This document shows, piece by piece, positions 4,938-16,232 of a DNA stretch of 36,899 bases. This DNA is from a virus (lineage: Duplodnaviria; Caudoviricetes): positions 1 to 36,899 of IMG/VR virus record IMGVR_UViG_3300035396_000833; one strand, given 5' to 3'. The notes under the pieces are model-generated. The model was not told the origin of the DNA. It did no database searches and was given only the letters and a program-made list of their open reading frames with translations. Within the stretch, counting starts at the first letter, position 1, and each line of letters opens with the position of its first letter. Both the position numbers and the translations under genes were made by a program.

Positions 4938-7607
4938 GTGGAAAATGTTTTAAAATTTAATGTTGATGTGAATACGGCAACGGGTATTGCATCTATAAAC
5001 GGCTTGAATGGTGCTGTTGGTAATGTTGGTACTACAGCGGTTAAAACCGGTAAGTCTCTAACCGAGGCTTTTAGCAATGATATGATTGCTTCAGTTAGTC
5101 ATTTAACTAATATTTATGGTAGTTTAAGCGGTGCTTTGTCTTCAGTAACTAGTACGGTTGGTGAATTTATTGCAGCATCTAATAAATCAGCTCTTGCCCT
5201 TGCTGGTCTTGGTGAAGTTTCCAAGGCTTATGGTCAGAGCGTTGATCAGGCGAATCAGTACGCTAAGGCGTTAACCAGTGATGGTTTGATGCAGTTAAGT
5301 TCTTCAGCACAATCTTTAAAATTTTTGATGAGTTCAGGCTTTAATATTTCCGAAGCCATGCAAATGGCAACTGCCATGAAAGATATTGGTGCTTTTAATA
5401 ATGTGGTTGGTAATTTAGATCAAGCCATGGTTGATGCTTCAAAAGGTATTAAAACCGGTTCGATAGAGCTTATTGAAAATATCGGACTTACTCAAAGATT
5501 ATCTGCCGTGATGAAAGCTGCTAATATTGATGCGAGCAACGGCATTGATATAACTAATAATGCTGCTCAAAGACAGGTTGTTTTTAATATGGTTATGGCG
5601 GAGGGTAACAAGTTTCAGGGCAATGCTGCCAGATTAGCCAAAGAGAGCATGGGTGCTTACGCACAGCTGGATAATTCTGTTACAGTTTTAAAATCTGGAA
5701 TTGGCGATGTTCTTAATGTTGGATTTGTTCCTTTAGCTAAAATTATAACTACGATTACAAGGGGTTTAACCAAAGATTTGATTCCCTTAACTATTGCAGT
5801 TGCAGGCGGATTGACTCTATACATGGTTCCAGCAATTATTACAACCACCACGGCGTTGTATGCGCAGGGCGTTGCTTTAAATGTTGCGACTGGCGGGATG
5901 TCTTCCCTTGCCATGTTTATGACAGCAGCGGTTGTTGGTGTAACAAGTTACGAAATGGCAACTAGAGATAGCACCACGGCACAGGATAAAAATACCGAAG
6001 CACTTAAAAAAGCTAAAGAAGAACAGGAAAAGTTAACAGCTGCCAGACAAGCTTATATTGATGGTGAAACCGATTTTGTTGACCGGGTTAAAGATGCTCA
6101 AAAACAAGTGATGGGTGAAGATGAAAAAAAGATTGCCGAAGCAAAAGCTTTTTGGGTTAAAACGATAAAGTTGAATGAAGAGGGTCAGCAGCGGATCAAT
6201 TACGAAACGATGAGCGTTACCAGAAAATATTCAAAAGAATTTTTGGAGGCAAAACAACAGGAGCGAGATGCTTTAAACAAGTTGGAAACCGATGCTGCCA
6301 ATAAATTATGGCAAATAATAGATGAAATAGATGCTAAAAAAGCCAAAGCCAATGCCGACAAAGCAAAAGACAGGGAGTTAGATGCTTTAAAGAAAGTCAA
6401 AACAAAACCAATGGAGTTATCTTTTAGGACAATCGAAACCAAACAGACGATTAACGAAGCACCGCCGGAATTGAAATTGCCGGAAACTTTCAACTCCAAA
6501 GAAGAATATCTACAGCATTTAAAAGAGATGCAGAAAGCCGGACAGGTATTTACCAAATCAGAGCAAGAGGTTTTTGATAACTCTTTTGAGTTTGTTTCAG
6601 CTCATGTTAATGATTCAGGTAAATTGATTGACGGTTATTATCGGAAACGAAAAACAGACGAATCTAAGTTTGCTAATGATATGAAATCAATCTCACTTTC
6701 CGCCCTATCCGGTATGCAGTCGGAAATTGACAACATCTTTAATTACAAGCGCAAGCGCTCAAACGAAGAATACGCTCTTGATAAAAAAGAGGCTGATTTA
6801 AATTATAAGCAGAGCATTAAGCGGATTGATGACGAACTTAAAGCCGAGAAAAAAGGGTCTGACAAGTACGAAAAACTAATGATCGAAAAGCAAAAACTAG
6901 ACGCTGATTTTTCCAAAGCCAACAAAGAGCGCAAAGGCCAGGAAGAGTTGGATAATATGAGTTCAGCGGATAGAGCCGCTGCTGTTGTTAAAGCTGGCAT
7001 GAAGTCCGCCATCTCCGCCGTGGCCGCTATGTCTGCCGCTAAAACTTTTGAAGGAGCGTTGACAGCTTTTCCGGGTCCACCTGGTTGGATTATTGCGCCA
7101 ATTGCAGCTGCCGGAGTTTATACAGCCGTTTCCGCTTTTGGTGGAATGTTTGCCGATGGTGGACAGGTTCAGAGCGGGATTTTAAAAGGCAATAGCCATA
7201 GTAGGGGTGGAATCTTGATTGAAGCTGAGGGTGGCGAGCATATCACTAAGAAAAGCCGCGTAAGCGAACTGGGTGTAGGCTTCTTTGATTTTATCAACAC
7301 AGCACCGTTAACCGAGGTTAAAAAGATGATTTCCGCTGTTAGTATTCCATCTTATCAATCCAAGGAGCGAATGGTTTATGCCGAGGGTGGGTTGGTTAAT
7401 CGTGGTTTTCCGGTTATAGTTTCCGGTGGTGGATTTAGTGAGGCTAAGCTGGATAAAATGATTGCGCTGTTGGAGTCTAATAATATGATAAATTATAAAA
7501 AACAACCTTCACAGGTTACAATCGTGCAGAAATTCATTGATCCAAAGATTGTGGCCAAGAGTGCCAATAAGGGTAATGAGACAATTGTTGCAAAACGGAG
7601 GATTTAA
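4938..7607 (+). CDS. Tail tape measure protein
   Basis: 889 aa, Ala/Gly-rich and coiled-coil with hydrophobic segments; C-terminal FADGG..G.SH..GG...EAEGGE motif; follows the chaperones. Confidence 0.92.
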   Translation: MENVLKFNVDVNTATGIASINGLNGAVGNVGTTAVKTGKSLTEAFSNDMIASVSHLTNIYGSLSGALSSVTSTVGEFIAASNKSALALAGLGEVSKAYGQSVDQANQYAKALTSDGLMQLSSSAQSLKFLMSSGFNISEAMQMATAMKDIGAFNNVVGNLDQAMVDASKGIKTGSIELIENIGLTQRLSAVMKAANIDASNGIDITNNAAQRQVVFNMVMAEGNKFQGNAARLAKESMGAYAQLDNSVTVLKSGIGDVLNVGFVPLAKIITTITRGLTKDLIPLTIAVAGGLTLYMVPAIITTTTALYAQGVALNVATGGMSSLAMFMTAAVVGVTSYEMATRDSTTAQDKNTEALKKAKEEQEKLTAARQAYIDGETDFVDRVKDAQKQVMGEDEKKIAEAKAFWVKTIKLNEEGQQRINYETMSVTRKYSKEFLEAKQQERDALNKLETDAANKLWQIIDEIDAKKAKANADKAKDRELDALKKVKTKPMELSFRTIETKQTINEAPPELKLPETFNSKEEYLQHLKEMQKAGQVFTKSEQEVFDNSFEFVSAHVNDSGKLIDGYYRKRKTDESKFANDMKSISLSALSGMQSEIDNIFNYKRKRSNEEYALDKKEADLNYKQSIKRIDDELKAEKKGSDKYEKLMIEKQKLDADFSKANKERKGQEELDNMSSADRAAAVVKAGMKSAISAVAAMSAAKTFEGALTAFPGPPGWIIAPIAAAGVYTAVSAFGGMFADGGQVQSGILKGNSHSRGGILIEAEGGEHITKKSRVSELGVGFFDFINTAPLTEVKKMISAVSIPSYQSKERMVYAEGGLVNRGFPVIVSGGGFSEAKLDKMIALLESNNMINYKKQPSQVTIVQKFIDPKIVAKSANKGNETIVAKRRI

Positions 7608-10446: not shown

Positions 10447-10711
10447 AATTTGTTACTCGAGATGTTTTTTATGTGTTGTATGTTGTTTGCTGGTTGTTAG
10501 ATGTGAAATTTGATTTACTATCAAGCAAATGTCATAAATATGTTGGAGATGGTTAAGAGGATTATCGTTTGCATTGCTGTTTTCCGCTATAATTTTTAAT
10601 AAATCTTAATAAATCTTTTATCATTCTGACAACTATTTTATTATTCTTTTATTGTTTTTTTGTTGTTAATTTGTTACTTTGGTTTTAAAGCTAACCTATT
10701 GGAGTAACAAA
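10445..10711. other. Putative attP region with arm-type repeats
   Basis: AT-rich, non-coding, upstream of int; TTAATTTGTTACT at 10445 and 10666; inverted AGTAACAAA at 10703. Confidence 0.5.
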
Positions 10712-11821
10712 ATGGCAACTGCTATCAATATAATTAAAGAACTTGATAAAATCAATTATCAAAAATATTTAAAAGTTCGAGCAAAGAAACTTACTAATGG
10801 CGGTTATTCGGTTTATCTCGACATCTGGCATAATGGGAAGCGGCAATATATCTTCTTGAAAATTCGTTTGCAGAATATTCCGTCCAGCAGGGATTCAGAT
10901 ATTGATTTATTGCGTTTGGCTATTGCGATCAGAGACAAGAAAGAAATTGAATTGATTAGTAATTCTGCCGGCTTTGAGGTTGCTGGTTCCGGTAAGGCTG
11001 ATTTTCTGGCCTACTTTCAATACTGTTTATCTAAGCGGGAAAAAGAAGCGCAAAATCATATTAATGGCAATTGGTACGGAACTCAAAAAAAGCTTGTTGA
11101 ATTTAGTAACAACCGGGTAACATTCGCGGATTTGGACTATAAATTTTGTAAGCGGTTTTTAGAGTTTTTGCAAAGTAAGGATTATAAGCCGGCAACTGTT
11201 CAGAGTATGTATTGCAGTATTTTTAAGGGCGTTCTTAATCGGGCGGTTAGAGATGGCATTATTCCCAAAAATCCAGCCGATGGGTTGACGGTTCCGGTTC
11301 CTGACTCTGAAAGACAATTTTTAACTTTTGAAGAACTTAAACAGTTGATTTCTACGCCTTGTAATCATCCAGAAGTTTCCGCAGCGTTTTTATTTAGTTG
11401 CTGGACTGGCTTGCGGCATTCTGATTTAAAAAACTTATCTTTTGATCAGATCAAAGATGGTTATATCGGTTTTAAACAGGCTAAAACGGGCGGAGTGGAG
11501 CGAATAAAGTTATCTGAAAACGCTTTAGCAATTATCGAAAGACGACAGGTGAACAACCACGGTAAGTGTGTTTTTAAAGTACCGCATTTGCAATGGGTTA
11601 ACCGGCAGTTAAAACTGTGGGTATTGTCAGCCGGAATAACCAAACATATCTCTTTTCATTGCGCCAGACATACCTTTGCTACGCTCTGTCTGACCTATGA
11701 TATTGATTTATTTACTGTGAGTAAGCTATTAGGGCATAGAGATATTAAAACGACTCAAATCTATGCTAAATTGATTGATAAGAAGAAGGATGAGGCAATT
11801 GATAAGCTGCCGAAGATTTAA
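10712..11821 (+). CDS. int: Tyrosine integrase (arm-binding, SAM-like and catalytic domains)
   Basis: TGLR, K, HCARHTFAT, LLGH, TTQIY catalytic residues; N-terminal YSVYLDIWHNGKRQY arm domain. Confidence 0.95.
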   Translation: MATAINIIKELDKINYQKYLKVRAKKLTNGGYSVYLDIWHNGKRQYIFLKIRLQNIPSSRDSDIDLLRLAIAIRDKKEIELISNSAGFEVAGSGKADFLAYFQYCLSKREKEAQNHINGNWYGTQKKLVEFSNNRVTFADLDYKFCKRFLEFLQSKDYKPATVQSMYCSIFKGVLNRAVRDGIIPKNPADGLTVPVPDSERQFLTFEELKQLISTPCNHPEVSAAFLFSCWTGLRHSDLKNLSFDQIKDGYIGFKQAKTGGVERIKLSENALAIIERRQVNNHGKCVFKVPHLQWVNRQLKLWVLSAGITKHISFHCARHTFATLCLTYDIDLFTVSKLLGHRDIKTTQIYAKLIDKKKDEAIDKLPKI

Positions 11822-12717
11822 AGATCAAGTTTTTGTTGTTCGCCTCTTGGAATGTGTTTTAGTACTTTTAATATTTCGTATTCTTTGTTTACAAATGTAT
11901 TAACCGATTTATCAAATTCCTGTTTAATTTTTAAATCCACAAACAGGGCATCGCCTTTGCCGAATCTTAAACCGTTGTCTATTAATCCAAAGAAACTTTC
12001 ATCAATCATTAGTGCGGAAATTCTGTTGCCATCATAAATAAAAGACCAGCGGTGTTTTACTTCCATTACTATTTTGAAGATGTTTATAGTTGCCTGTTTA
12101 GTGATATAGCGGTGTGTTTTATCATCGAAATGTACATTGCCGCCTATGGTTTCAAACTCTGTTGACGGTGCTTTAAATAATGATTTTTTGTTTTTATCTA
12201 AAATGTTAAAAGAGGTTATATTTTCATCTTTTGCCATGTATGCAAAGATATTGCCGGTATATTCATTGATCTTTTGACCTCTGTCAGCGGTTGTTAATAC
12301 CACAAAAACACTATCAACTGTGGCGGTTTTATCTTCATCATTGGTTACTTCGACTTTATTGTCAGAAAGTTCTTTAGTTGCCTTTGGTGGTTTGCCTTTT
12401 AAGAATTGACGATACGAAAACAGACCGCCGACTATTGCCATAAGTGCAGCCGAATACTCTACATTGTCTTTTGAAAAGATGCTTAATAGAGTTTTGCCTA
12501 AAGACGATATAATATCAATATTCACATCAAAACTACCAGGAGAAAAACTCTTTATTTTAACTTTGATTTCAGTGTCTTTGCTGGTAATGCTGTTGATCTG
12601 TTGATTAACTTCTTTTAAAAGTTCGTTGAAATTATTTAAGGTATAAATAAAAGTGTCCGCGTCAATTTCGTTAGTTTTGCCATCGTATTTTATTGTAAAT
12701 AATTCAGATTTTTGCAT
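11818..12717 (-). CDS. Hypothetical accessory protein, 299 aa
   Basis: Long ORF with AAGGA RBS; I.YDG, GSF and C-terminal W.F...D..F....F.KGD.L motifs. Confidence 0.7.
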   Translation of the reverse strand: MQKSELFTIKYDGKTNEIDADTFIYTLNNFNELLKEVNQQINSITSKDTEIKVKIKSFSPGSFDVNIDIISSLGKTLLSIFSKDNVEYSAALMAIVGGLFSYRQFLKGKPPKATKELSDNKVEVTNDEDKTATVDSVFVVLTTADRGQKINEYTGNIFAYMAKDENITSFNILDKNKKSLFKAPSTEFETIGGNVHFDDKTHRYITKQATINIFKIVMEVKHRWSFIYDGNRISALMIDESFFGLIDNGLRFGKGDALFVDLKIKQEFDKSVNTFVNKEYEILKVLKHIPRGEQQKLDL

Positions 12718-12735: not shown

Positions 12736-13197
12736 TTATCGTAATTTTGCGTTTAATTCTTCGAGTTCTGCAAGGTGTTTCTTGGTCGCATACTTGTTGA
12801 CAATAAACTGATCATTGGTTAATATTAGTAATACTTGCTTATTAGACTGTTCAAATTCACGAACATCTATTACCGTTACATTGTTCGGTGGAGTGTATGC
12901 CTGAAATTCTAATTCTTTATATTTGTTGATACTTTCTATTATAGTTATATTACTAGCTGTGGATTGCCCGTTTATAATATACTCATAACCCTCTAGTTCT
13001 TGAAAAATAACATCAACGCCAGTATCGCTTGTAATAGCAAACCAAATTCCACCATCATCATGGGAACGCCCGATAATCAACCCACCTTTGCGGACATCTA
13101 TTGTGTAAAACTCGGTAGATTGTACTAATGTTTCAACTTTAACGAAAGGATTTATATTGTTACGAAAACTTTCTAAAACAAAATTGACTAAGCTCAC
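12736..13197 (-). CDS. Hypothetical protein resembling the tape-measure C-terminal motif
   Basis: AAGGAG RBS, GTG start; GGLIIGRSHDDGGI...ELEGYEYIIN. Confidence 0.7.
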   Translation of the reverse strand: MSLVNFVLESFRNNINPFVKVETLVQSTEFYTIDVRKGGLIIGRSHDDGGIWFAITSDTGVDVIFQELEGYEYIINGQSTASNITIIESINKYKELEFQAYTPPNNVTVIDVREFEQSNKQVLLILTNDQFIVNKYATKKHLAELEELNAKLR

Positions 13198-13443
13198 TGA
13201 TTCTCCTTGTAATGGAATTACCCCAAGAGTTGATTATACACAAGGCGGTTTGGTTAGATTTGATCTTACACAAGATGGCTTGGCTGGTGAGGGCTTAAGG
13301 ACAACATCGCCAATGACAGAAGCCGAACTTGATGCTTTAATTGATAAATTAGTTGCTTCTAATTCCCTTTAATTACCAGCCCTCGGAGTCTCTGAAATTC
13401 AGCGGTGTGCTTTGCCGAAATTCCACGATGTTTGATTTAGAAG

Positions 13444-13797
13444 TTACCCGGTATTTTTTTTTTCCGCAAGATGATTATGCGCGCAGGCATCTTTTATTAT
13501 GCTTTTGAGCAATTCTAAATTCGCCTCCAGCTTATCGATAACCTTTTGCAATTCCGCACAGTTCGGGCATTCCCCCTCTGGCTGATCCGTGAGAAACATC
13601 GAGCCAGTGCCGGTGAGGAGCCAGTGAAGGTTGATGTTATAGGTGGATACAATTTTGTCTAATACCTCTTTTGTTGGTATTATATCACTTTTTTCGTAAC
13701 GATAAATAACTGATTTTTGCACACCAACTACTTGTCCGAGTTCTTCACCGGATAAATTTAAATAATCTCTAAACTCTTTTAGCCTTAAACCGAGCAT
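13444..13797 (-). CDS. XRE-family HTH repressor, paralog 2
   Basis: LRLKEFR..LNLS..ELG...YEK..INLHWLLTGTGSMFL; CPNC; start assigned by alignment to 15854-16135. Confidence 0.88.
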   Translation of the reverse strand: MLGLRLKEFRDYLNLSGEELGQVVGVQKSVIYRYEKSDIIPTKEVLDKIVSTYNINLHWLLTGTGSMFLTDQPEGECPNCAELQKVIDKLEANLELLKSIIKDACAHNHLAEKKNTG

Positions 13798-13810
13798 ATA
13801 AATTAAAATA

Positions 13811-13862
13811 ATGCAAAATTGCATCCTTTTTTCTTGACAGGGTTACAAATTTGTATTATCTT
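13811..13862 (+). promoter_or_regulatory. Sigma70-type promoter with palindromic operators, copy A
   Basis: TTGACA(13834)-17-TATCTT(13857); TACAAATTTGTA at 13844-13855; ATGCAAAATTGCAT at 13811-13824. Confidence 0.75.
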
Positions 13863-13928
13863 ACCCTTGTAATTAAGTTTACTGTAAACTTGATTTAGTA
13901 ATGATCATTGAAAATATAAGGAGGTTTT

Positions 13929-14407: not shown

Positions 14408-14585
14408 AAACTTCCTCGTGTGTCAGGGTTTTTACTCTGCCACTTTCAATCTGTTTTTTGCGTTTAAGTATCTCTTTATCGTCCCTGGTTTCTAAAAGAT
14501 ACAATAACTTAGCTTTTGCCTTATCATTAAGATTAGCAATCATTTCAGCTAGTGTTTCAATCTCTATTTCGGCTGTGATCTTCAT
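14394..14585 (-). CDS. Cognate antitoxin
   Basis: 63 aa, overlaps the toxin start; C-terminal IESGRVKTLTHEEVF. Confidence 0.8.
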   Translation of the reverse strand: MKITAEIEIETLAEMIANLNDKAKAKLLYLLETRDDKEILKRKKQIESGRVKTLTHEEVFGVR

Positions 14586-14590
14586 TTTCT

Positions 14591-14620
14591 CTATTCCTTA
14601 TCTATAGTGATCTTGAGTTT
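14591..14620 (-). repeat. Cassette junction repeat C (repressor 3'-end remnant)
   Basis: 30 of 30 nt identical to 15293-15322. Confidence 0.9.
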
Positions 14621-15077
14621 AATCTTTACTTTGTAAATCTTTTGTTTGCTGCTTTTTGCCGTAAACAAACATACCTACTAATGCTAACACTGTTGTTGAA
14701 CCGAATAGTCCGCCCACTACTGGTTGACCATTTAAAGCAAGGTACGAGGCAGAGGTTATAAAAGTTAATGCCAAGACAAAGCCCATTATTTGACCGCGTG
14801 TACTTTCTTTGAGCTGAGTAGTAATTGATAACCTTTCTAACTCTATACGGTGTTTTTCTTGTTCTTCATACCGCTCAAACAACACTCTTGCCGCCTCTGG
14901 ATGAAGCTTTTGATAATGCTCAATCATCTGTGGCGGTGGAAATGGTCCCGAATAAGAGTATGAAACTTGACTGATTCGGGCAATGGCAATTCCAAGTTTA
15001 TCTTTGGGAATTAAATCAATAAAGGGCTTTAATTCATCTGGAACAACTGGCTGTATTTCTTGATTGTGTTTACTCAC
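14619..15077 (-). CDS. DUF2335-like membrane protein, copy 2
   Basis: YSGPFPPP..I..Y....P.AA......E..HR, RGQ..GF, two TM helices. Confidence 0.85.
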   Translation of the reverse strand: MSKHNQEIQPVVPDELKPFIDLIPKDKLGIAIARISQVSYSYSGPFPPPQMIEHYQKLHPEAARVLFERYEEQEKHRIELERLSITTQLKESTRGQIMGFVLALTFITSASYLALNGQPVVGGLFGSTTVLALVGMFVYGKKQQTKDLQSKD

Positions 15078-15288
15078 TCTTAAGCTTCTTTAGTAAATTG
15101 CCGAAACTTTGACCAATTACACCCCATGAAGAATTAAACGCCTTACGATTTGCCTCTTGTGGCGTTTTTGAAGTGTTAAATTTGTAGTAGTTTCCCCAAA
15201 TATTAAAACAACTCCCAATACCTGTTGTGATACTGCTTTTGGAAGCAAGAAAATTTGTTTGATATTTTGGTTTACTATAATCTGTCAT
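15070..15288 (-). CDS. Small partner protein of the DUF2335-like gene, copy 2
   Basis: Overlaps the downstream gene; G...FN.WG...EA......IGQ shared with 15655-15849. Confidence 0.75.
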   Translation of the reverse strand: MTDYSKPKYQTNFLASKSSITTGIGSCFNIWGNYYKFNTSKTPQEANRKAFNSSWGVIGQSFGNLLKKLKSE

Positions 15289-15326
15289 ATTCCTATTCCT
15301 TATCTATAGTGATCTTGAGTTTGCTT
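15285..15326 (-). repeat. Cassette junction repeat B (repressor 3'-end remnant)
   Basis: 37 of 42 nt identical to 15846-15887; reads SKLKITIDKE* in the repressor frame. Confidence 0.9.
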
Positions 15327-15683: not shown

Positions 15684-15849
15684 TTGTTCTCCTTAAGTCT
15701 TGCCCGATTGTTTCTAAGTCTGCCTTGTATGCTTCAACATCGCTATGCTGTTTAATTGGGTTGGCTATTCTGCCCCAGTTAAAAAGCCTGCGCATACCGC
15801 CTAAGAATGACGGCATTTCAATGTATTTAAATGATGATGACTGTTTCAT
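15655..15849 (-). CDS. Small partner protein of the DUF2335-like gene, copy 1
   Basis: SFLGGM.RLFNWG...SDVEAYKADLETIGQDL; starts 4 nt after the repressor stop. Confidence 0.75.
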   Translation of the reverse strand: MKQSSSFKYIEMPSFLGGMRRLFNWGRIANPIKQHSDVEAYKADLETIGQDLRRTIEAYKAQIK

Positions 15850-15853
15850 ATTC

Positions 15854-16135
15854 CTAATCCTTACCTATAGTGACTTTAAGTTTGCTTCCACAGTTGGGGC
15901 AGTGTAAGCCGGTATCCGGGAGAGGCTCTAAGAACATACTGCCGGTGCCGGTTAGGAGCCAGTGAAGATTGATGTTGAAAAACTCTACAATTTTGTTTAG
16001 TACATCTTTATTGGGCAAAGTGTCATTTAGTTCATATCTTGATACGGCAGACATAGCAATATTTATCTTATCCCCAAACTCTTTTTGAGTAAGATTAATA
16101 CTTTCTCTAATATTTTTTAGCCTTAAACCGATCAT
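15854..16135 (-). CDS. XRE-family HTH repressor (CI-like), paralog 1
   Basis: LRLKNIR..INLTQKEFG...VSRYE...INLHWLLTGTGSMFL; CPNCG; divergent from the early operon. Confidence 0.9.
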   Translation of the reverse strand: MIGLRLKNIRESINLTQKEFGDKINIAMSAVSRYELNDTLPNKDVLNKIVEFFNINLHWLLTGTGSMFLEPLPDTGLHCPNCGSKLKVTIGKD

Positions 16136-16150
16136 AATTTTAAAAAACTA

Positions 16151-16200
16151 TACAAATTTGTAAAATATTGCTTGACAACTATACAAACTTGTATTATCTT
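16151..16200 (+). promoter_or_regulatory. Early lytic promoter with two operators, copy B
   Basis: TTGACA(16172)-17-TATCTT(16195); TACAAATTTGTA at 16151-16162 and TACAAACTTGTA at 16182-16193. Confidence 0.8.
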
Positions 16201-16232
16201 ACCCTTGTTAATTGAGTTTCACACTTGATTAT

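What the first reader, a model, noticed from the sequence alone, without database searches (positions are those of the whole stretch)
12736..13197. Stand-alone accessory protein resembles the C-terminal motif of the phage's tape measure protein
Seen: this ORF has KGGLIIGRSHDDGGI...ELEGYEYIINGQST......IESIN. The tape measure C-terminus (about 7149-7300) has FADGGQVQSGILKGNSHSRGGILIEAEGGEHITKK......FDFIN. The shared pattern is G-x-S-H-x-x-G-G-I...E-x-E-G-x-E-x-I...IN. The ORF also repeats the second half (QFIVNKYAT....LEELN). It lies in the lysogeny region, not the tail operon. Inference: a decoy of the tape-measure tip motif that could poison tail assembly or DNA ejection of superinfecting phages, or a free His/Glu catalytic module related to tape-measure processing.
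Basis: partly seen in the sequence, partly recalled or inferred. Interest (0 to 1): 0.72.

Follow-up and report, generated by a model that had tools for sequence, protein, structure and literature searches.

The report
Free-standing tape-measure module, likely anti-phage
A small accessory gene of this temperate phage encodes a one-and-a-half-fold copy of a conserved module from phage tail-ruler (tape measure) proteins, belongs to an unnamed family carried by prophages, mobile elements and bacterial chromosomes, and likely hampers tail building by rival phages, which is untested.

Summary
ORF 12736-13197 (minus strand, 153 aa) belongs to an unnamed stand-alone family: 292 clusters at 50% identity, median 164 aa. 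[quoted passage not shown] Residues ~108-149 are a real partial repeat. AlphaFold pLDDT is 94.

Two corrections: the match to this phage's own TMP is weak and the gene is not a recent copy of it; the module lies ~100 residues before the TMP end, so it is not the tip plug.

Relatives occupy accessory positions in six divergent prophages, mostly without a cognate TMP module. They lie near defence systems in 4 of 12 bacterial loci against 1 of 16 controls (p 0.13, suggestive only). Here the neighbour is PDC-S42.

Best reading (0.4): a lysogen-expressed TMP mimic interfering with tail assembly of other phages, Tab-like in effect but unrelated in sequence. The scan noted stand-alone TMP modules before on other DNA.

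The parts
12736..13197 (-). Stand-alone TMP-module protein, 153 aa, member of an unnamed family
   Evidence: AlphaFold pLDDT 94.2, pTM 0.88
12925..13086 (-). Full module, residues 38-91 (GG-x3-G-x-S-H-x2-GG ... E-x-E-G-x-E ... I-N); H46 94%, E69 91%, G70 97%, E72 98%, N91 94% of 151 family members
12751..12876 (-). Partial internal repeat, residues ~108-149 (significant over ~128-151); lacks the GxSH hairpin and the glutamates
   Evidence: 40.3 vs at most 14.4 shuffled against the first half; 31.7 vs 14.1 against TMP modules; strand/helix order repeats
13203..13208 (-). Shine-Dalgarno-like AAGGAG, 5 nt before the GTG
   Evidence: sequence
11818..12717 (-). Downstream gene 18 nt away on the same strand; matches PADLOC candidate defence model PDC-S42
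   Evidence: E 1.9e-34, positions 4-299 of 302; phrog_3243
13444..13824 (-). Upstream repressor-like HTH gene, same strand; shared lysogenic transcription is inferred
10679..11821 (+). Tyrosine integrase, marking the lysogeny region
4938..7607 (+). Tape measure protein, 889 aa
   Evidence: position in tail operon; C-terminus hits PHROG TMP families and Douge TMP; its close relative P0005 carries PF06791
7149..7298 (+). TMP module, residues 738-787; a further xxGG motif follows at 7377-7391

Best explanation
The gene encodes a small protein, predicted to be soluble and well folded, made of one full and one partial copy of the module found near the end of phage tape measure proteins, and it likely acts as a lysogen-expressed mimic that interferes with tail assembly of other phages. 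Shown: homology, internal repeat, accessory and mobile locations, and no detectable cognate TMP module in most carriers. Inferred: transcription with the repressor during lysogeny; that the two halves imitate a pair of TMP modules; that the protein binds the C-terminal region of an invading phage's TMP, or the tail-tip or chaperone partner that reads it; and that tails then fail to form, protecting the population rather than the infected cell, as with Tab.
For: Reciprocal homology: family to TMPs; a TMP profile finds the stand-alone gene in 11 of 11 genomes and 5 of 5 prophage records. BT12 TMP scores 17.1 bits, 0 of 1000 shuffles. No other TMP-type module was detected in 10 of 11 genomes and 5 of 5 records, one a complete provirus, so the target is probably foreign. 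Six prophage lineages (27-45% identical) hold it at accessory sites: behind the repressor (window, L026), between terminase and portal (L016 group), against the end of the tail operon (L025, L027) and near an integrase (L009). Immediate neighbours include Lamassu (L005), Thoeris (L010), PDC-S31 (L011) and PDC-S42 (window). One member is fused to DUF4238, a domain that protects against T7 on its own (PMC9122126, passage). The family is rare: 2 stand-alone hits in 401 genomes of one phylum, one being the search centre. Precedent: Tab acts through the TMP C-terminal region (PMC10884400, passages).
Against: Defence enrichment is not significant: 4 of 12 vs 1 of 16 control loci, p 0.13; 5 of 12 with a Cas6 gene, p 0.057; 4 of 17 with metagenome loci, p 0.34. 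Several loci look like plain variable gene arrays (L003, L007, L082, L087, L186). The phage's own TMP carries the module, so self-poisoning needs an unidentified escape. A two-module protein may be self-satisfied and bind nothing. The module also occurs in many small or long phage proteins that are not TMPs, so it need not be TMP-specific. No PADLOC model matches the ORF.
Confidence: 0.4

Rival explanations
1. It is a mobile accessory protein that descends from the TMP module but now serves a function unrelated to phage tails.
For: Many bacterial loci lack defence neighbours (8 of 12). Some sit among immunity-like or variable genes (barstar, DUF4288, SseB). One is on a Pararhizobium plasmid among hypothetical genes. 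The family is separate from TMP modules in the tree.
Against: The residues conserved in the family are those of the TMP motif. Repeated occupation of prophage accessory sites and adjacency to defence systems.
Confidence: 0.25
2. It is an enzyme: H46, E69 and E72 would form a catalytic or metal site, the module would be the TMP's own processing element, and the free form would cut or modify TMPs of invading phages in trans.
For: H46, E69 and E72 are 91-98% conserved in 151 members. How lambda gpH is cleaved is unknown (PMC12617516, section 12).
Against: The related Douge modules lack the GxSH histidine, so the residues are limited to one clade of modules. The motif may be a structural glycine-rich turn. 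Residue geometry could not be measured, as no coordinates are returned. The link to lambda gpH is not significant.
Confidence: 0.14
3. It is a counter-defence decoy or a sensor: it would soak up host factors that recognise the TMP C-terminus, or act as the bait domain of a defence effector.
For: TMP-directed defences exist (Tab; SNIPE, abstract only). The DUF4238 fusion and tight linkage to Thoeris or PDC genes fit a bait role.
Against: Only 1 of 151 members is such a fusion, the partner genes differ from locus to locus, and counter-defence does not explain copies in bacterial defence islands.
Confidence: 0.12
4. It is a virion cargo or assembly helper for the element's own tail.
For: Single-module small proteins and N-terminal modules occur in other phages; one lineage holds the gene inside the head operon, on the same strand (L016).
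Against: It lies outside the late operon here and against tail genes in L025-L027; it occurs in ICEs, a plasmid and chromosomes without a cognate TMP module; some copies are broken (L013, L083).
Confidence: 0.09

Closest known systems
Sub-terminal module of siphophage tape measure proteins (PF10145-bearing TMPs; Bacteroides phage BT12 TMP; mycobacteriophage Douge gp16, PDB 8ZDO)
   Same: Same GG..G.SH..GG...E.EG.E...IN motif in Bacteroidota-type TMPs; the TMP profile reaches Douge gp16 at E 7e-9 through its two GEFI stretches.
   Different: Free 150-aa protein with a partial second copy and an extra N-terminal part; no ruler helix, no hub-docking end; encoded outside the tail operon.
Tab (Pseudomonas phage JBD26; PMC10884400)
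   Same: Small prophage accessory gene expressed apart from the late operon; acts through the TMP C-terminal region and blocks tail assembly. This is the predicted mode here.
   Different: No sequence relationship; Tab is 83 aa, lies between the terminase genes with anti-Tab, and is known only from JBD26 relatives. The ORF is itself a TMP homolog, and its activity is untested.
Tai systems (PMC11364771)
   Same: Small genes in prophage moron loci and satellites that block tail assembly.
   Different: Tai targets the central tail fibre or tail needle; no homology was tested or is suggested.
P-FimU (PMC12952977, abstract only)
   Same: Prophage defence through a look-alike of a structural component.
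   Different: Mimics a host pilus protein and blocks adsorption; here the model is a phage tail protein.

Membership tests
TMP sub-terminal GxSH/ExEGxE module (homology) | Significant profile match to TMP C-terminal modules | tested here: met
TMP sub-terminal GxSH/ExEGxE module (homology) | Same three-dimensional fold as the TMP module | tested here: inconclusive
   ORF model is confident; own-TMP model has mean pLDDT 62 with the strands unformed, from 31 sequences; no model-to-model comparison tool
Tape measure protein | Long helical ruler encoded in the tail operon | tested here: not met
   153 aa, opposite strand, lysogeny region
Tab / anti-Tab | Sequence homology to JBD26 gp31 | tested here: not met
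   No hit at E<=5 with the family profile among 803 frames that included gp31
Tab / anti-Tab | Position between small and large terminase with a counter-defence gene | tested here: not met
   Window position; L016 lies between terL and portal
Tab / anti-Tab | Blocks tail assembly through the TMP C-terminus | not testable with these tools
   needs infection assays
Tai | Homology to Tai proteins and targeting of central fibre or needle | not tested
   Tai sequences not fetched; PADLOC 2.0 of 2023 predates them
Curated families (Pfam, NCBIfam, PHROGs, PADLOC) | Match above cut-off | tested here: not met
   NCBIfam 0 of 141 members; Pfam only single weak hits at E>=0.001; ORF alone: PHROG best E 0.08, PADLOC none
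crAss_CARG1 (PF25725) | Profile or fold match to crassvirus cargo protein 1 domain | tested here: inconclusive
   Only an Atlas score of 0.80, within chance range; not reported; the Pfam copy may lack this model
His/Glu protease or metalloenzyme | Clustered catalytic residues in a known catalytic fold | tested here: inconclusive
   Residues conserved; coordinates unavailable; fold searches in Tried and rejected

The most novel reading that the evidence does not exclude
The GxSH/ExEGxE module is the element that pairs or processes tape measure proteins during tail maturation, and this family is a domesticated, trans-acting form of it that locks or cuts the TMP of invading phages: a defence family built from the TMP itself, and a soluble model for the unsolved step of TMP processing.
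Probability: 0.13. Interest if true: 0.88.

Novelty: new variant of a known kind. Interest (0 to 1): 0.57.

Why it matters
It would be a broad, unnamed defence family that turns a conserved phage tail part against phages, extending tail-assembly interference (Tab, Tai) to Bacteroidota and beyond. Even without defence, it offers a soluble, confidently predicted version of a TMP module that is unresolved in the Douge structure, in a part of TMPs whose role and cleavage are open questions (PMC12617516). It can be tested now: a Bacteroides ovatus member exists, and cultured B. thetaiotaomicron phages such as BT12 carry the module in their TMP.

Tried and rejected
Fold searches with the ORF model gave nothing clear: PDB Foldseek no hit at E<=0.001; VIA-align wide best Z 3.3, rmsd 4.8 over 64 residues; BFVD best E 0.03, top rows long phage proteins, some named tape measure. 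This does not show the fold is new. The TMP model search was uninformative. Sequence searches of the PDB with the ORF or its family gave only chance hits.

Complex prediction of the ORF with the TMP C-terminus was not available.

Lambda gpH and JBD26 TMP show a similar layout by eye, but my profiles do not detect them (133 and 163 of 1000 shuffles as high), so I do not claim that link.

N-terminal truncation: homolog P0002 is called 41 aa longer and the window has an upstream in-frame stop. I rejected truncation because of the Shine-Dalgarno site and because family matches start near residue 30.

The crassvirus cargo lead (PMC10172136 passages) found no support. No RNA holder listed. A single-protein scan of viral contigs found nothing, nor did P0008 in cultured phages.

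Ten literature searches listed no paper that, by title or abstract start, describes this family; the library is open-access only and no supplements were read.

Full report
Setting. The window is a whole phage record with 141-bp terminal repeats, 38.8% GC. It has a capsid, terminase, portal, TMP, integrase, two repressor-like HTH genes and RecT. The ORF lies on the minus strand between a repressor-like gene (13444-13824) and a 299-aa gene (11818-12717) that ends at the integrase. It starts at a GTG with AAGGAG 5 nt upstream. It and its downstream neighbour have lower GC (33.8% and 32.6%) than the genome. The neighbour matches PADLOC candidate PDC-S42 over nearly its whole length.

The family. 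A profile of the ORF and its one close homolog finds 292 clusters at E<=0.001 and 80 at E<=1e-10 among 1.84 billion representatives. I examined the best 150 plus the homolog, 151 in all: median 164 aa, 5 over 230 aa, 1 over 300 aa. G38, G39, G43, H46, E69, G70, E72, N91, N134 and N149 are 90-98% conserved. Only 1 of 151 has a transmembrane-like stretch. No curated family covers it. AlphaFold with 141 sequences gives pLDDT 94.2 and pTM 0.88, with a strand-helix-helix unit appearing twice. The repeat is significant. Named members come from Bacteroides ovatus and Myroides, other Bacteroidota and a Pararhizobium plasmid.

Homology to the TMP module. The cleanest test is: the family profile, searched against longer proteins (7993 candidates scored), returns 8 hits at E 3e-7 to 4e-5; 6 carry PF10145, and the motif lies near the C-terminus in 7 of the 8. 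A tblastn of the ORF against 50,697 phage records gave 45 weak hits (listed rows E 3-6), 41 in Bacteroides or Phocaeicola phages. Of the 26 such rows listed, 5 are annotated as TMP, and I checked one, BT12. Profile-profile scores (probability 98.5) are partly circular: 5 of 8 rows of the first TMP alignment came, and the second was filtered for the GxSH motif and partly found with the ORF. The invariance of H and E in that TMP set therefore follows from selection. In reverse, the TMP profile finds the stand-alone gene in 11 of 11 genomes and 5 of 5 prophage records.

Against a close tie to the own TMP: BLASTP E 0.045 and weak profile scores. In a quick tree of 89 short modules (66 columns, many forks open, careful search unfinished) the ORF groups with its family and the own TMP with other TMPs; two long-branch TMP rows fell inside the family.

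What the module is. Among 79 distinct modules in viral loci, 33 lie near the C-terminus of long proteins, 5 at the N-terminus, 5 in the middle and 36 in ORFs under 400 aa, many of them 60-150 aa single-module genes. It is thus a mobile phage module, most often in TMPs. The TMP profile reaches Douge gp16 (E 7e-9), where only residues 1658-1699 are resolved in the hub (PMC13033339, passages). In lambda, gpH residues ~690-817 are unresolved and neither the cleavage site nor its catalyst is known (PMC12617516, passages and section 12); my profiles do not detect gpH. The own TMP C-terminus folded alone gives confident helices but unformed strands. That fits a module needing a partner, but may reflect the shallow alignment.

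Contexts. Prophages: the window; 11 IMG/VR records with the same 146-aa member, between terL and portal in the one annotated (L016); L025 and L027, facing the end of the tail operon; L026, overlapping the end of the repressor gene; and L009, near an HTH gene and an integrase in a probable prophage. These six are 27-45% identical. Conjugative-element markers flank L006 and L013.

Defence neighbours were counted as PADLOC hits at E<=1e-30 over most of the model, within about 6 kb. This gave 4 of 12 bacterial genome loci (Lamassu with PD-Lambda-1; PDC-M62; Thoeris; PDC-S31), three of them immediate neighbours, plus a cut-off Cas6 at L009. It gave 0 of 5 distinct metagenome loci scanned, mostly short, and 1 of 16 control stretches from eight of the same genomes. 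Fisher p is 0.13, 0.057 with Cas6, and 0.34 with the metagenome loci. Two test loci are contigs under 5 kb, and some test ORFs with housekeeping domains or under 100 aa were not submitted. Of the 17 loci I left out the phage itself, nine copies of the Bacteroides prophage gene, one duplicate and one 1.5-kb contig. The control does not separate defence from mere location in mobile DNA. No second TMP-type module was detected in 10 of 11 genomes (which may be incomplete) or in 5 prophage records, including one complete provirus; divergent modules could escape this profile. L026 and the window do carry one in their own TMP.

Mechanism. Shown: a conserved TMP-derived module with a partial repeat, in accessory and mobile positions, mostly without a cognate TMP module. 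Predicted: a compact soluble fold. Inferred: expression in the lysogen, binding to an invading TMP or its partner, and failure of tail assembly. Tab shows that a small prophage protein can do this through the TMP C-terminal region (PMC10884400, passages), Tai through other tail parts (PMC11364771, passages). The ORF is not a Tab homolog. How the phage would spare its own TMP is unexplained; divergence of its module from the family consensus or shut-off on induction are guesses.

Earlier scan notes (unchecked) describe stand-alone TMP modules in other genomes; none matched this sequence or genome. What this work adds is the two-half family, its size, its model and its spread into bacterial chromosomes and defence neighbourhoods.

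Verdict. A real, unnamed family with proven TMP-module homology and a plausible but unproven anti-phage role: new variant of a known kind, interest 0.57.

Noticed in passing
window 13444-13870 and 15854-16208: The repressor-like HTH gene and its upstream region are duplicated 2338 bp apart (repeats of 33-51 nt, 71-88% identical), flanking a ParE-like toxin pair and two DUF2335 cassettes.
   Followed up: no
window 14583-14624, 15285-15326, 15846-15887: Three copies of a 42-nt repeat at the gene junctions of the tandem small-gene/DUF2335 cassettes.
   Followed up: no
window 13198-13372: The region upstream of the ORF is conserved at protein level with the N-terminal extension of P0002 and holds a short duplication and an in-frame stop; the plus strand has a 71-aa open frame. 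Role unknown.
   Followed up: partly
window 11818-12717: PDC-S42 / phrog_3243 candidate defence gene, apparently in one operon with the ORF.
   Followed up: partly
L205 11388-14948 (JBD26 TMP): The Tab-sensitive TMP has by eye a FAxGG...SxxE...IN...ATGG layout near its C-terminus, like the module here; not significant with my profiles.
   Followed up: partly
L096-L168 (for example L123, L126, L142, L150): Many phages carry 60-150 aa genes made of a single module, clustering together in the tree.
   Followed up: partly
L028-L043, L046: The module sits at the very N-terminus of 440-800 aa phage proteins; the three tested had no PHROG or Pfam match.
   Followed up: no
P0068: DUF4238 fused to a degenerate family domain that lacks the histidine.
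   Followed up: partly
L016 9944-11602: Head morphogenesis protein with a region matching PHROG 'Bxa ADP-ribosyl transferase' in the Bacteroides prophage that carries a family member.
   Followed up: no
L013 5968-6562; L083 5935-6276: Split or truncated family members in a conjugative transposon and in a Bacteroides prophage copy.
   Followed up: no
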